Below, in pieces: positions 2,809-51,912 of a stretch of DNA of 64,000 nt. A model generated the notes under the pieces. That model was not told the origin of the DNA, made no database searches, and saw only the letters and a program-made list of their open reading frames with translations. The stretch covers positions 14,818,001 through 14,882,000 of the forward strand of contig OZ024762.1 in NCBI GenBank assembly GCA_964016885.1, given 5' to 3'. The stretch is from Eledone cirrhosa. Its lineage: Eukaryota. Each line of letters starts with the position of its first letter. Position 1 is the stretch's first letter. Position numbers and translations under genes: made by a program.

Positions 2809-2993
2809 AGTTTTAATATAGATGAGATTCTACAGGACTAGAACTGTTTCATTCTTTAGAAATCATCAGGAATTTCTAAAGAATGAAACAGTTCTAGTCC
2901 TGTAGAATCTCATCTATATTAAAACTGTTATACTCTGCAATGTATTGAGTACCTTACTTACTGTGGTTACCTCCGATTCAACCCGGAATAACG
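2809..2993. mobile_element. Fold-back HHR mini-element, family A
   Basis: 55-bp perfect inverted arms 2809-2863/2872-2926. Complete HHR on the minus strand 2827-2873 (ATTC CTGATGA TTTCTAAAGAAT GAAACAG..CTGTA GAAT). Tail to 2993; flanked by (TA)n. Confidence 0.8.
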
Positions 2994-3334
2994 TATATAT
3001 ATAAATAAATATATATATATATATATATATATATATATATATATATATATATATATATATATGTGTGTGTGTGTGTGTGTGTGTGTGTGTGTGTGTGTGT
3101 GTGTGTGTGTGTGTGTGTGTATACAAATGCATACATACACATAAATAAATACATATACACATGCATATACACACATAAATATATATGTATACATACACAC
3201 ATAAATATATATATACATATACACACATAAATATACATATACATATGCTTACATGTACACATAAATATATAAATATATATATATATATATATATATATAT
3301 ATATATATATATATATATATATATACACACATAA

Positions 3335-3425
3335 TGTAGAAGCCATTTCAATATTAAATTTGTTGTATACACTCCACTAATGTATTGAGTACCTTGCTGT
3401 GGTTACCCCACTGAAACTAGGACTA
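3335..3425 (+). mobile_element. Family A tail fragment
   Basis: TGTAGAAGCCATTTC...TGTATTGAGTACCTT...GTGGTTACC matches the family A 3' part. Confidence 0.65.
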
Positions 3426-4894
3426 TATATACATTTATGTATATATATATATATATATGTGTGTGTATGTATGTATGTATGTACGTGTGTGTGTGTGTGT
3501 GTGTGTATGTGTGTGTGTGTGTGTGTGTGTACGTATGTATGTATGTATGTATGTATGTATGTATGTATGTATGTACGTATGTATGTATGTACGTATGTAT
3601 GTATGTATGTATGTATGTATGTATATATGTATGTATGTACGTATATATGTATGTATGTATATATGTATGTATGTATGTATGTATGTATGTATGTATTAAA
3701 GTTCATACATATAACAAGAATACGCGATCTTTGGGTTATCCAGGGATGTCCAGTTATGGCTTCCACTATACAGGGAACTTTAATATAAACTAAATAAGTT
3801 CTCTTTGTATTAGCTTGAGCATTTTCTCCTTTTGTCCTACACCAGGGTTTCCAAAACCTTTTCAAATGCAGAACCCTTTTTGATTCAGAAACTTTTGGGG
3901 GGAACCCTAAAGTCTAATACTGTTATATGGTCGCAATATAAATATATTCCTTCACCTTTTTTCACGGAACCCAGGCACTCCTTGGGACCCACTGCCTTAC
4001 ACCAACGAATATCCTGCATATACATATATATATATATAGGACGGGTTTCTGCAGTTTCCGTTTCGCAAACGTAGCAAGCATTTGCTGAAGGTGCCGCGTA
4101 GAGTGAAAGGACCCAGAACCGCGGAAGAAGCACTTTGATCCACAAAACTACGCATGCAATAAATCCCTAAATCTAGTGAGGCTTTGTTTTAGATAGTCAG
4201 AATCATAACTAAAGCATAACAGAACTAAGAGGAGGGTAACTTCCACAAACACCCCGGGAGTATCTTCTTAGTATACCTGAATATAATTTTGTATAAACGA
4301 AGCAATGTAAAACTATCGAGGACCTCAGATGGTACCACCCCGTTTCCAGCCTCTAGCCATCCGCTGCATGTGCAGGTATAGACATGTCCCCCACAACCCG
4401 CCAAATCATCCTACAAGGGCCTTACAATCGTTCGATGCATCAGCTACAGACTGAAAAGGGCCTCGCGGCTTCCTCTCTTTACTTTATGAACCCAAAACTT
4501 ATGGTGGACTCTAATTAACATCGCCGTATTTATAAACGTTGTCTTGCATATTTTAAACATGGCGGAGCTCATCTTTCTGCCTCTCGGTCTCAATCCGGCT
4601 TGGATTCTTCAAGACAGTGACAGAGTGATAAATAAAGACAAAGAGAGTGGGATAGAGGATGAGAGAGAGAGAGAGAGAGAGAGAGAGAGAGAGAGGAAGA
4701 ATTGACCTCTGTACTTTATTTATCGACCTCGAGCAGAGAGCCGGAACGAATGCAATCCGACGTGTTAACAACTGCACACGCTCGCAAGTTGTGTGTGTGT
4801 GTGTGTGTGTGTGTGTGTGTGTGTGTGTGTGTGTGTGTGTGTGTGTGTGTGTGTGTGTGTGTGTGTGTGTGTGTGTGTGTCTCTCTCTCTCTCG

Positions 4895-5052
4895 AGTTCA
4901 ATCGGGAGTACCCAAAGTAAAGTACACAATATATTAGTAGAGAGTAAACGACGAATTCAATATAGAAATGGCATCTACAGGACTAGAACTGTTTCATTCG
5001 AAGGAAATCATCAGGCTATTCTGGTGATTTCATTTCTATATCAAATTTGTTA
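4895..5052 (-). mobile_element. Family A HHR element with a short inverted segment
   Basis: Minus strand CTGATGA TTTCCTTCGAAT GAAACAGTTCTAGTCCTGTA at about 4975-5014; short plus-strand piece 5031-5052. Confidence 0.7.
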
Positions 5053-5083
5053 TATGTATATATATATATATATATATATATAA

Positions 5084-5292
5084 TGAAAAATTGAACAGGG
5101 ACAGAACAGAGAGGCAGTACAATAAATGTTTATTAAATTCACGCTCAGGAGAGTGGGGGGGGGGGTAGGGGGGGGACGACGTTTCGGGCATAAGCCCTTC
5201 TTCAGGTGAGAAGTGTGTGGGAACAGAGTTCAAAAGGTGTGTAGGAGAGTGGTGGAGAGACATATAGCGAAAGGAAACGGTGCGAATGAAAA
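5084..5292 (-). mobile_element. Solo PLE-type pseudo-LTR with minimal HHR (family G)
   Basis: Minus strand reads CTGAAGAAGGGCTTATGCCCGAAACGTC; aligns with 2480-2692. Confidence 0.75.
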
Positions 5293-48573: not shown

Positions 48574-49123
48574 ATATATATATTTGTATATATATATATT
48601 TATATATAATAAACAACATAAGATAATTATTTCATTTACCAGTGGTTTCTTGAAGACATATATTTATGTGTTATATATATATATATATATGTATATAAAA
48701 AAAAACATGAGAAGAAAGAAGAACACTGCGTGGTTTCCACATGGGTTACATATGATAAAAATAGTCCTTCGTCAGTGATTTTCCAACCATCATTGGTATT
48801 ACATCGCATTAAAAATCAGATACCTCAGGTTGGTGCGAGCAATAACTAAAAAAAGTTATTGGGACCAGAATTCGCGTAAGGCGAGGGGGACAAGTAAACA
48901 ACATAGAAGGATAAAAGCAAACCGAAGATAGGAAAATAAACAAGCAACATGGTTGTCCGGTCAGCATGAGCTGGGTGGATTTCATGAGCGAGAGAGGTAC
49001 AGACCGTGTTGATGTGTGTGAGATGTGAGCAAAATATATATATATATATATATATATATATATATATTTCGTTTCTGAATTTGTTTAGCAAGATTCTTTA
49101 TCTGAAATCGTGTGTTGAAACCG

Positions 49124-49448
49124 ATATTGTTATACTTTTGGAGGGTCATGTTGCCAATAAGAAACACACGCACCAGTTGCTTTCACTTCAATTTATTATA
49201 TATTTATAAATTTATAAATTTACAAATCTACAAACTTATAAATTTCTGGTTGGTTGGTTGGTTCCACAACCAGATAGTTGTTTATATAACAACTATCTGG
49301 TTGTGGAACCAACCAACCAACCAGAAATTTATAAGTTTGTAGATTTGTAAATTTATATATTTATAAATATATAATAAATTGAAGTGAAAGCAACTGGTGC
49401 GTGTGTTTCTTATTGGCAACATGACCCCCTCCCAAAGTATAACAATAT
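49124..49448. repeat. About 160-bp-arm near-perfect palindrome (family E)
   Basis: Arms centred near 49285; the terminus resembles 54864-54940 (..TGACTCTCCCCAAGTATAACAATATA). Confidence 0.85.
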
Positions 49449-49744
49449 ATATATATATAATAAATCAGGAAAGAAGATTGACATGGTTGCTATACAAAAA
49501 AGGTTCATCCACTACCCGGAATACCAAACTGGAACAAGGCCAACCCACCACCACCACACCACAGCCCACCTCATCCACAGACCGTCACCAACATCTCACC
49601 ATCACACCCACCCCCATATACACTACAGGCCAGTACATCGCCTTGATCCTTCTCACCAATCAAAACATCTCATTTTGTCAAACTCTTGAAACTCTGACTT
49701 TACCACATAGCATGTATTTTCATTTTCTTATAGCATTTTAAGAG

Positions 49745-49840
49745 GGTCCGTCGAGCTGCCGATTATTGAGTCGGGTAGGATCGATATAGATCGAACCTTG
49801 AGCTGATCAGTGGCGAAAACGCGCGTCACCTATCAATAAA
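49745..49840 (+). ncRNA. Degenerate HHR in a probable PLE 3' remnant
   Basis: GGT CCGTCGA(~CTGACGA) GCTGCCGAT...ATCAGTGGC GAAA ACGCGCGT C ACC, followed by AATAAA. Confidence 0.45.
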
Positions 49841-51732
49841 TGCAATGAAGGAATAATCAGAACAGATATTAAGAAAGGCATCCCAATCCGATGGTCATTC
49901 TATTTTCCCCCTGGTCATTACATGGTCATTCACTTCACCGGACGCAACTCTTGGGGAGAACATCGCCATTTTTTTCCCGGTGACAGGAGGTGGCTTTGAA
50001 CTCGGATGTACAGAACCAGAACAGGTATTTTTTAAAAAAAGGTCCCAGTCCGACTATTTAACGACCGCCATCACCCACCCACCACCACCACCACTACATC
50101 ACACTCCACCACCACCACCACCGAATCACCACTCCACCTCCACCATCAGCCCCACCAGATCACCCCCCACCCCAGCCCACCAGAACACTACTCCAACACC
50201 ACCACCACACCACCTCCACCGCCAGATCCTCACTCCACCACACCATCACCACCACCCCACTGCCACCACCACATCACCACTCCGCCGCCACCACCACATC
50301 ACCACTCAACCGCGTCCACCACCACCACCAGATCCTCACTCCAACCACCACCACCCCACTGCCACCACCACTCCACCGCCGCCGCCACCACCACCACCAC
50401 CCCACTGCCACCACCACCCTACTGCCACCACCACATCACCAATCCACCGCCACCACCACCAGATCCTCACTCCATCACACCACCACCACTCCACCACCAC
50501 CCCACTGCCACCACCACCACCACCACACCACCACCCCACTGCCACCACCACATCACCACCCCACTGCCACCACCACATCACCCCCCCCCCCCACTGCCAC
50601 CATGCCCCCCCCCCCCCACTGTCACCCCCACACCACCACCACCACCACTGCCCCCCCCCCCCACTGTCACCATGGCCACACCACCCCCCCACTGTCACCC
50701 CACCCCCACTGTCACCATGACCACACCACCACCCCACTGTCACCACCACCACCACCACTGCCCCCCCCACTGCCACCACAAGTACGGTACTTTACTATCG
50801 ACCACCCAAAGACCTTAAATTTGAAATATCTAAGAGGTTATTGACCCCATCACACCGGCTCTGACCCCTGAGAGCAGTCAACTGGAGCCAATACCGCCAA
50901 CAATTCTATCTTTATATCAGAGAGCCGAGGGGTCACTCACCTCTTTGATTTTTTTTTCTAAGGGATATATATATTATATATTATATACACACACATATAT
51001 ATACACACACACACACATATATATATATATATATATATATATATATATATATATATTATATACACACACATATATATATATATATATATATACACACACA
51101 CACATACACACACATATATATATATAATATACACACACACATACATATATATATACACATACACACACATATATATATATATACACACATATATATATAT
51201 TATATATACACACACACACACACACACACACTATACATATATATATATACACATACACACACATATATATATATATATACACACACACATATATATATAT
51301 ATTATATACACATATATATATATACACACACACTCATATATATATTATATATTATATACATACACACACATATATATATACACACACACACACATACATA
51401 TATATATACACATACACACACATACATATATATGATATACACATACACATATATTATATACACACCACACATACACATACATATATATATTATATACACA
51501 TACACACATATATATATTATATACACACACACACATATATATACACACACACACATGCACATAACATATATATATAATATATATGTGGAAATATCCAAGA
51601 GAAAGAGCACTCAGTCCGTAGGACAGATATATATATATATATATATATATATATATATATATATATATATATATATATATATATATATATATATAGAGAG
51701 AGAGAGAGAGAGAGAGAGAGAGAGAGAGAGAG

Positions 51733-51912
51733 AGAAGAGCTTCTACAGGACTAGAACTGTTTCATTCGTGAGAAATCATCATTCCTGATGATTTCTCACG
51801 AATGAAACAGTTCTAGTCCTGTAGAAGCTCTTCTATATTAAAACTTTTATACTCTGCTATGTATTGAGTACCTTACTTACTGTGGTTACCTCAGATTCAA
51901 CCAGGAATAACC
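51733..51912. mobile_element. Fold-back HHR mini-element, family A
   Basis: Inverted arms 51733-51781/51786-51834; complete HHR core on the plus strand from 51785; same tail as 2927-2993. Confidence 0.8.

What the first reader, a model, noticed from the sequence alone, without database searches (positions are those of the whole stretch)
2809..51912. Fold-back pivots cluster inside or next to the ribozyme
Seen: independent palindromic insertions turn around at the HHR. Family A pivots at 2864-2871 and 51782-51785 (core/stem I), family C at about 40425-40435 (CUGAUGA), and family B at 8447-8454, 40792-40793 and 38558-38561 (stem II/GAAA). Usually one arm keeps an extra tail. Inference: reverse transcription stalls or snaps back at ribozyme hairpins and self-primes the second strand. 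The HHR fold would then dictate insertion architecture, beyond its role in cleavage.
Basis: partly seen in the sequence, partly recalled or inferred. Interest (0 to 1): 0.75.

Follow-up and report, generated by a model that had tools for sequence, protein, structure and literature searches.

The report
Penelope fold-backs mark RNA start
These mirror-image repeats are real, stub-sized insertions of Penelope-like jumping genes, and their turning points pile up at one fixed base per family that is likely the capped start of the element's RNA rather than a ribozyme hairpin, which would explain how this class builds its inverted ends.

Summary
All six palindromes are real, each with a one-sided tail. 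They are short head-to-head insertions of Penelope-like elements (PLEs); family B encodes a 721-aa protein with Hydra-clade motifs. I mapped 339 other genomic copies of six families. Arm ends pile up sharply at one base per family (+1), but its position relative to the hammerhead core differs: 6 nt upstream (A), inside loop II (B), about 75-86 nt upstream (C, F). Family D has a hammerhead and 0 of 29 fold-backs nearby. +1 lies about 30 nt below a TATA-like box in A and B, and is often preceded by a non-genomic G (22 of 39 against 30 of 137 in B, C, F), a known cap-copy signature. So pivots likely mark the RNA 5' end. In 21 of 116 A/B palindromes the tail-less arm reaches further 5' than the tailed arm, which snap-back from the tailed arm cannot give. 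Two cDNAs joined head to head fit best. Hairpin-guided junctions occur but are rare (about 5%). No RNA data were available. The scan reached this reading before on other DNA of this genome.

The parts
2809..2873 (-). Family A, tail-less inverted arm, element positions +3 to +67
2872..2995 (+). Family A, tailed arm from +13 to the 3' end (about +134); 2-nt overlap with the other arm; tail-less arm reaches 10 nt further 5'
51733..51781 (-). Family A, tail-less arm +8 to +56
51782..51911 (+). Family A, tailed arm +4 to +133, carries the hammerhead core at 51785
8317..8450 (-). Family B, tailed arm +2 to +135; lacks the 5' half of the hammerhead
8455..8510 (+). Family B, tail-less arm +6 to +61; 4-nt filler between arms
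40660..40791 (-). Family B, tailed arm +4 to +135
40792..40851 (+). Family B, tail-less arm +2 to +61; blunt junction
38441..38567 (-). Family B, tailed arm from +12; junction has 6-nt microhomology at a natural hairpin (+12..17 with +22..27): the minority, hairpin-guided class
38562..38601 (+). Family B, tail-less arm +22 to +61
40326..40428 (-). Family C, tail-less arm +84 to +186
40427..40608 (+). Family C, tailed arm +80 to +267; core at 40434 (+87); pivot at the core is atypical for the family
12128..12412 (.).
47963..48265 (.). Family C sister-subfamily fold-back not listed: arms +7..236 and +119..180
47192..47307 (.). Family B fold-back not listed: tail-less arm reaches +1, tailed arm starts at +83
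58219..58316 (.). Family B fold-back not listed: arms +93..134 and +11..56
9558..9675 (.). Family A fold-back not listed: arms +90..127 and +3..73
27610..27778 (+). Longer family A copy (-120 to +50) that shows the upstream promoter-like region with the TATA-like box
49065..49465 (.). Family E fold-back; pivot at +42 counted from the core, just 3' of the hammerhead, which is absent from both arms
2432..2685 (+). Family D copy with hammerhead, no fold-back (control family; second copy 5088-5291 on -)

Best explanation
The palindromes are short head-to-head insertions of Penelope-like retrotransposons whose arm ends pile up at one fixed base per family, likely the capped 5' end of the element's RNA, and the two arms are likely two separately primed cDNAs joined at their 3' ends. 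Steps: (1) shown: arms have two fixed outer ends (B +61 and +135; A about +60/67 and +134; C +185 and about +268), one giving the tail; (2) from PMC11167929: a PLE enzyme nicks both strands and starts reverse transcription at two internal RNA sites that bound the tail; (3) inferred: when it starts in the 5' pLTR, both cDNAs run off the RNA 5' end after 60-270 nt, often adding a C opposite the cap and a few untemplated bases; (4) inferred: the two 3' ends are joined by template jumping or microhomology, with trimming and fillers; (5) shown: the hammerhead lies at a different distance from +1 in each family, so its nearness in A and B follows from promoter layout; its stems guide only a minority of junctions.
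For: Sharp single-base-scale hot spot in A, B, C, repeated in a held-out B set (5'-most end within 3 nt in 12 of 18 palindromes, 0 of 42 ends in the core), in a C sister subfamily (11 of 34 ends in one 7-nt window) and family F (14 of 29). Non-inverted solo copies stop at the same base (A 6 of 11 at +1..+3; C 3 of 9 at +1), as do tandem jumps (L174, L032) and one full-length B copy (L358 at +2). Wall-like asymmetry in A: 65 ends at +1..+8, 8 at -8..-1. TATA-like box at -25 to -33 in 11 of 11 long A copies and at -24 to -30 in 5 of 7 long B copies; CCAAT at -72 to -90 in 9 of 11 A and 6 of 7 B. B ORF starts at about +231. Non-genomic G before the hot-spot base: B 13 of 20 vs 23 of 88 at control starts, C 4 of 5 vs 6 of 35, F 5 of 14 vs 1 of 14; pooled p=6e-5; an untemplated G is read as cap copying for L1 (PMC9341517). 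L143 and L172 have both arms at +1 with a C-A-G spacer, i.e. the signature on both arms. Tail-less arm extends 10 nt or more further 5' in 21 of 116 A/B palindromes, the reverse in 7 (p=0.013). Fillers in 17 of 45 A and 35 of 71 B junctions.
Against: No RNA run was available, so the start site is inferred. The G in family A (13 of 17) is confounded: +1..+6 is stem I, so a cDNA ending at +1 can anneal through stem I and add the same base; L013 did so (12 of 14 filler letters match). One B control position (+15, 154 G) was dropped as an artefact of a reference with a 1-nt insertion; with it the B and pooled tests are not significant. F alone is not significant (p=0.08). No TATA-like box near -30 in C (0 of 9) or F (0 of 8). 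E has no sharp hot spot. The two arms nearly always share family polymorphisms (discordant 1 of 112 in A, 24 of 444 in B, 10 of 63 in C), so two different source RNAs are not shown; this fits one RNA, sibling RNAs, copying of one arm, or later homogenisation. Asymmetric junctions could partly be later deletions (L132 looks like one). Many copies extend upstream of +1 (22 of 78 A, 13 of 108 B), which needs read-through templates. Samples are the 40 best hits per query, i.e. young copies.
Confidence: 0.68

Rival explanations
1. One cDNA runs off the RNA 5' end, folds back on itself through untemplated or short matching bases and copies itself; asymmetric cases come from later deletions. Pivot still marks the RNA start, but only one priming event from RNA is needed.
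For: Arms share polymorphisms; 60 of 98 first-set A/B palindromes have inner ends within 4 nt of each other; microhomology at 47 of 98 junctions.
Against: Surplus of cases where the tail-less arm reaches further 5' (21 vs 7); cap-type base on both arms in L143 and L172; two fixed outer ends match two RT start sites (PMC11167929).
Confidence: 0.14
2. One reading: reverse transcription stalls or snaps back at hammerhead stems, which self-prime the second strand and dictate architecture.
For: In A the hot spot coincides with the outer end of stem I; L013 and perhaps L144 switch through stem I; 3 of 71 B junctions have 13-14 nt overlap in the quasi-palindromic stem III; window 38558-38561 turns at a natural hairpin; a few C ends fall at +80..86 beside the core.
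Against: Hot spot is inside loop II in B and 75-86 nt upstream in C and F; D has 0 of 29 fold-backs at the element; A hammerhead region folds no better than shuffles (z=0.63); only 8 of 171 junctions have 6 nt or more overlap; ribozyme mutants do not change PAc insertion products in vitro (PMC11167929).
Confidence: 0.08
3. Self-priming on an antisense RNA template, as proposed for rotifer Penelope elements (PMC3846280).
For: Published reading of head-to-head junction palindromes; would give concordant arms.
Against: Does not predict ends at a sense-strand promoter position with an extra G, nor solo copies and tandem jumps ending at the same base.
Confidence: 0.06
4. Arm ends mark RNA cut by the ribozyme, or a 3' splice site (A and B have pyrimidines then AG at +1/+2).
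For: 2 of 166 B ends lie at the cleavage site; D. virilis Penelope has an intron ending at helix I (PMC4209133).
Against: 0 of 100 A ends at the cleavage site; arms often include the AG itself (20 A ends and 11 B ends at +1), no shared upstream exon is joined, and C and F have no AG at the hot spot.
Confidence: 0.03
5. Assembly or library chimeras.
For: Fold-back chimeras are a known long-read and amplification artefact (recalled; PMC13265396 seen as a search listing only).
Against: Flanks are not inverted, outer ends are stereotyped, arms differ by 2-5%, and strand-switch joints recur at the same positions in three independent raw libraries.
Confidence: 0.01

Closest known systems
EN+ Penelope-like element insertions with an inverted 5'-truncated copy and a one-sided tail (PMC8557442 passages; PMC3846280 parts 2-3 of 5)
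   Same: Head-to-head inverted copy, tail on one arm, partial tandems, junction microhomology, (TA)n targets, hammerhead in the pLTR.
   Different: Here most insertions are stubs of 60-270 nt per arm; tails are about 70-85 nt rather than 30-40; I map the inner ends to one base per family, which those passages do not.
Hydra clade of PLEs (PMC8557442 section 11)
   Same: Family B protein has RWR (RWK-like), DKT, CxCx5C linker, CxxC and CxH motifs, C-terminal GIY-YIG-like domain, hammerhead, (TA)n insertion.
   Different: Unit is about 3.5 kb against 'generally <3 kb'; no tree was built; proteins of A, C, D, E, F were not found or sought.
Poseidon PAc of Anolis, internal initiation (PMC11167929 parts 1-2 of 4)
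   Same: Two fixed RT start sites bounding the tail; both strands nicked and extended; uncleaved RNA as template.
   Different: That work maps the 3' (outer) ends and leaves later steps open; PAc starts lie inside the ORF, whereas B starts lie in the 5' UTR.
L1 twin priming and untemplated 5' G (twin priming recalled from memory; G from PMC9341517 passages)
   Same: Two priming events make an inverted 5' part joined by microhomology; cap copied as extra G.
   Different: In L1 the two cDNAs cover different parts of the RNA; here they overlap and give a palindrome.

Membership tests
EN+ Penelope-like element | Single ORF with RT and GIY-YIG endonuclease | tested here: met
   Family B: 719-721 aa ORF in 7 of 20 fetched loci; RT catalytic motifs and GIY-YIG-like motif read by eye in P0002; Pfam gave no hit. 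Not tested for A, C, D, E, F.
EN+ Penelope-like element | pLTRs, partial tandems, inverted 5'-truncated copy | tested here: met
EN+ Penelope-like element | Tail on one arm only | tested here: met
   Outer ends +61/62 in 38 of 53 B, +60/67 in 33 of 45 A, +185 in 14 of 22 C palindromes
EN+ Penelope-like element | Type I hammerhead motif in the pLTR | tested here: met
   Core, GAAA and stems read from long copies; B partly carries the U3-A8 variant of PMC4209133. No hammerhead among the 150 of 346 Rfam rows shown. Cleavage activity not tested.
Hydra clade | RWK motif, DKT, CxCx5C linker, CxxC and CxH, no CCHH | tested here: met
   P0002 against section 11 of PMC8557442; RWR in place of RWK; one cysteine only between the GIY and YIG halves
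Hydra clade | Placement in the clade by RT phylogeny | not tested
   No reference Hydra sequences fetched
Hydra clade | Insertion into (TA)n | tested here: met
   TA runs follow the tail in the printed A and B copies
Pol II start site at +1 | TATA box about 30 nt upstream | tested here: inconclusive
   11 of 11 A, 5 of 7 B, 0 of 9 C, 0 of 8 F; AT-rich DNA, no chance control run
Pol II start site at +1 | Capped RNA 5' ends at this base | not testable with these tools
   No RNA holder listed; indirect G signature
Ribozyme-guided fold-back | Pivots fixed relative to hammerhead stems across families | tested here: not met
   Offsets -6, +44, -85.5, -77.5, -75, -61.5; D 0 of 29
Snap-back from the tailed strand | Tail-less arm never reaches further 5' than the tailed arm | tested here: not met
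   21 of 116 do by 10 nt or more; later deletion not excluded

The most novel reading that the evidence does not exclude
Every Penelope-type inverted end is made by a dimeric enzyme priming from both ends of one break on the same RNA region, both cDNAs copying through to the cap and being stitched by an end-to-end jump; the genome's stub palindromes are then a fossil 5' RACE that maps PLE promoters to the base, and shows that family B starts transcription inside its own hammerhead, so only the downstream pLTR can cleave.
Probability: 0.45. Interest if true: 0.65.

Novelty: new member of a known kind. Interest (0 to 1): 0.43.

Why it matters
How PLEs form tandem and inverted structures is named as an open problem (PMC8557442), and the first in vitro study leaves the later steps open (PMC11167929). 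The data here shift the cause from the ribozyme or antisense self-priming to run-off at the RNA start, and give a cheap test (5' RACE at four predicted bases). A start inside loop II in family B would mean the 5' end of the transcript lacks a full ribozyme while the 3' pLTR keeps one, a simple way to confine cleavage to one end. The structure itself is known, and the scan's earlier notes reached the same reading elsewhere in this genome.

Tried and rejected
Rfam scan: only microsatellite-driven miRNA hits in the rows shown. My first guess of a start site 2 nt before the C core was wrong: the C hot spot is about 86 nt upstream. Search with the C tail found nothing. No RNA holder listed, which is no evidence on expression. 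RAD libraries cut next to the B pivot (read starts at 1449), so symmetric B junctions are hardly spanned; many A joints at 1466 may reflect subfamily divergence. Cap-G in A first looked decisive (10 of 12) but is confounded by stem I. Arm-polymorphism test did not show two source RNAs. Pfam and phage tblastn gave nothing for P0002; the Atlas does not hold it. Systematic sample (49 stretches, 490 kb): 31 palindromes, 15 of A/B/C, 8 with a core-like motif within 20 nt of the centre, 17 with none; the motif regex is loose and 16 were not assigned. Dropped rows: window's own copies (L001, L061, L160, L230, L280, L310, L375, L405), L148 (no alignment), L383 (other arm of L380), L428 (N run); L435-L454 were used only in the G test and cleavage-independent counts, not in the 339. 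Some automated calls are imperfect (e.g. L077, L285, L317, divergent sister-subfamily copies) and were left uncorrected. Literature searches for a printed link between PLE inversion ends and the start site found none; supplements of PMC11167929 (Fig. S2 maps insertion ends) and PMC8557442 were not seen and may bear on this.
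Full report
Observation. Alignment to long genomic copies gives their inner ends in element coordinates: A +3/+13 and +8/+4; B +2/+6, +4/+2 and +12/+22; C +84/+80; each has one tailed arm. Six more fold-backs of the same families lie in the window and were not listed; four of them have one arm at or near +1 and the other cut far shorter. The genome is 3.0 Gb in 1796 contigs.

What they are. Searches with the 3' ends of each family gave 40 scored hits each. Copies sit in (TA)n, are 5'-truncated and often carry an inverted arm. A peptide from a long B copy led to copies with 719-721 aa ORFs starting about 231 nt after +1, flanked by pLTRs and inverted arms that end at +61 or +135. 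The protein carries the motifs listed for the Hydra clade. Inverted 5'-truncated copies and a one-sided tail are described PLE features (PMC8557442 passages; PMC3846280 parts 2-3 and passages).

Breakpoint map. I mapped 339 copies outside the window: A 78, B 108, C 39, C sister subfamily 28, D 29, E 29, F 28; 171 are short palindromes. In A, B and C one 7-nt window holds 66 of 95, 59 of 121 and 25 of 49 arm ends; 5000 uniform simulations never exceeded 15, 18 and 12, and narrower null ranges gave the same verdict. A B set fetched after the hot spot was fixed repeated it, as did F and the C sister subfamily.

The hot spot does not follow the ribozyme. The core starts at +7 in A, -43 in B, +87 in C and about +79 in F. 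Palindromes with the 5'-most end within 15 nt of the core: A 41 of 45, B 2 of 71, C 1 of 22, sister 1 of 14, F 0 of 11, E 1 of 8. In B the hot spot is inside the large loop II, so the stubs lack the core altogether. D has a hammerhead and no fold-back at the element in 29 copies. Ends at the cleavage site are 0 of 100 and 2 of 166. The A ribozyme region folds no better than shuffled sequence. Hammerhead mutants do not alter PAc insertion products in vitro (PMC11167929).

What the hot spot likely is. Solo copies, tandem jumps and one full-length copy stop at the same base. A TATA-like box lies about 30 nt upstream in A and most B copies, with CCAAT at about -85 to -90, but not in C or F. Arms that stop at the hot spot are often preceded by a G that the element does not have there: B 13 of 20, C 4 of 5, F 5 of 14, against 23 of 88, 6 of 35 and 1 of 14 at control starts (pooled p=6e-5). 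This uses all loci held and drops one B control position where a reference with a 1-nt insertion mis-scored 154 ordinary copies; with it left in, the B and pooled tests fail. In A the G (13 of 17) cannot be told from a short extension through stem I. An untemplated G is read as cap copying for L1 (PMC9341517 passages). D. virilis Penelope has an internal, TATA-less promoter (PMC2377424 passages), while a rotifer pLTR has TATA and Inr-like words, so promoter type varies. The step from these signs to a capped start is inference; no RNA run was listed.

One strand or two. A second arm copied from the tailed cDNA cannot reach further 5' than it, and a tail cannot be copied from the tail-less arm. 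Yet the tail-less arm is longer at the 5' side by 10 nt or more in 21 of 116 A/B palindromes, the reverse in 7, and two copies show the extra base on both arms. With two fixed outer ends and the PAc result of two RT starts and nicks on both strands, two primed cDNAs joined at their 3' ends fit best; fillers that copy nearby sequence fit repeated template switching. End-to-end jumping and L1 twin priming are recalled parallels, not checked here. Against: arms share polymorphisms almost always, and later deletion can create asymmetry.

About 5% of junctions (8 of 171) have 6 nt or more of overlap, several in stem II, stem III or the hairpin over GAAA; L013 switches through stem I; window 38558-38561 belongs to this class. 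Hairpins therefore tune some joints but do not set the architecture.

Artefact check. In raw RAD reads of three samples from another study, 13 listed strand-switch joints on a B reference have one side at 1438-1455 (+1 = 1442), 8 of them at 1438-1445, most seen in two or three samples; depth rises about twenty-fold across +1 in contigs of run X1 (4 further joints not shown). On an A reference, switches at 1447-1467 recur across samples (7 not shown). The window's own junctions were not tested on reads.

Prior notes and verdict. After forming this reading I looked up the scan's notes: three unreviewed notes on other pieces of this genome reach the same conclusion, and others pointed me to the Hydra clade, which I then tested. 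My searches of the paper library found no printed mapping of PLE inversion ends to the start site, within the library's limits. Verdict: real, known kind of insertion; ribozyme-dictated architecture not supported as the rule; RNA-start run-off with two cDNAs is the best, testable explanation.

Noticed in passing
L011:1431-1509 (family A, -15 to +63): Raw reads in all three RAD samples show 'goes back 76-78' joints with 12-14 distinct starts: tandem arrays of a hammerhead-containing unit of family A, retrozyme-like.
   Followed up: no
L046:1388-1500; long B copies: Family B hammerhead has a roughly 35-nt loop II that contains the TATA-like box and the predicted start; core varies between U3-A8 and C3-A8 forms among copies.
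   Followed up: partly
window 44674-45255: Palindrome centred at 44866 with 95-nt perfect inner arms, one arm interrupted by a short repeat (44958-45137); no family assigned, no clear hammerhead.
   Followed up: no
window 40427-40434; C copies L065, L068, L079, L267: Minor second cluster of C ends at +80..86, about 25 nt below a perfect TATA-like word at +59: possibly a second start site beside the core.
   Followed up: partly
L318, L334, L337, L049: Runs of A follow the cDNA end at +1 in B junctions, like untemplated A-tailing; they make B ends at -1..-4 ambiguous.
   Followed up: partly
window 2432-2685 and 5088-5291 (family D): Family D has a hammerhead but no short fold-backs; most copies extend more than 200 nt upstream, so its layout or priming may differ.
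   Followed up: partly
window 8147-8240 and about ten other places (16344-16856, 28424-28562, 43094-43218, 44958-45137, 46367-46550, 57744-57884): An abundant short interspersed repeat of about 120-190 nt.
   Followed up: no
window 29600-36000 and 23200-24200: Long tandem arrays with periods of 31 nt and 21 nt and strong strand skew.
   Followed up: no
window 2941-2953 and 8361-8371: Tails of families A and B share a short motif (GTATTGAGTAC); C has a similar word. Possible RT recognition site.
   Followed up: no
window 10302-10513, 6055-6164, 39460-39572, 41109-41159: Short inverted arms around microsatellites, unassigned.
   Followed up: no
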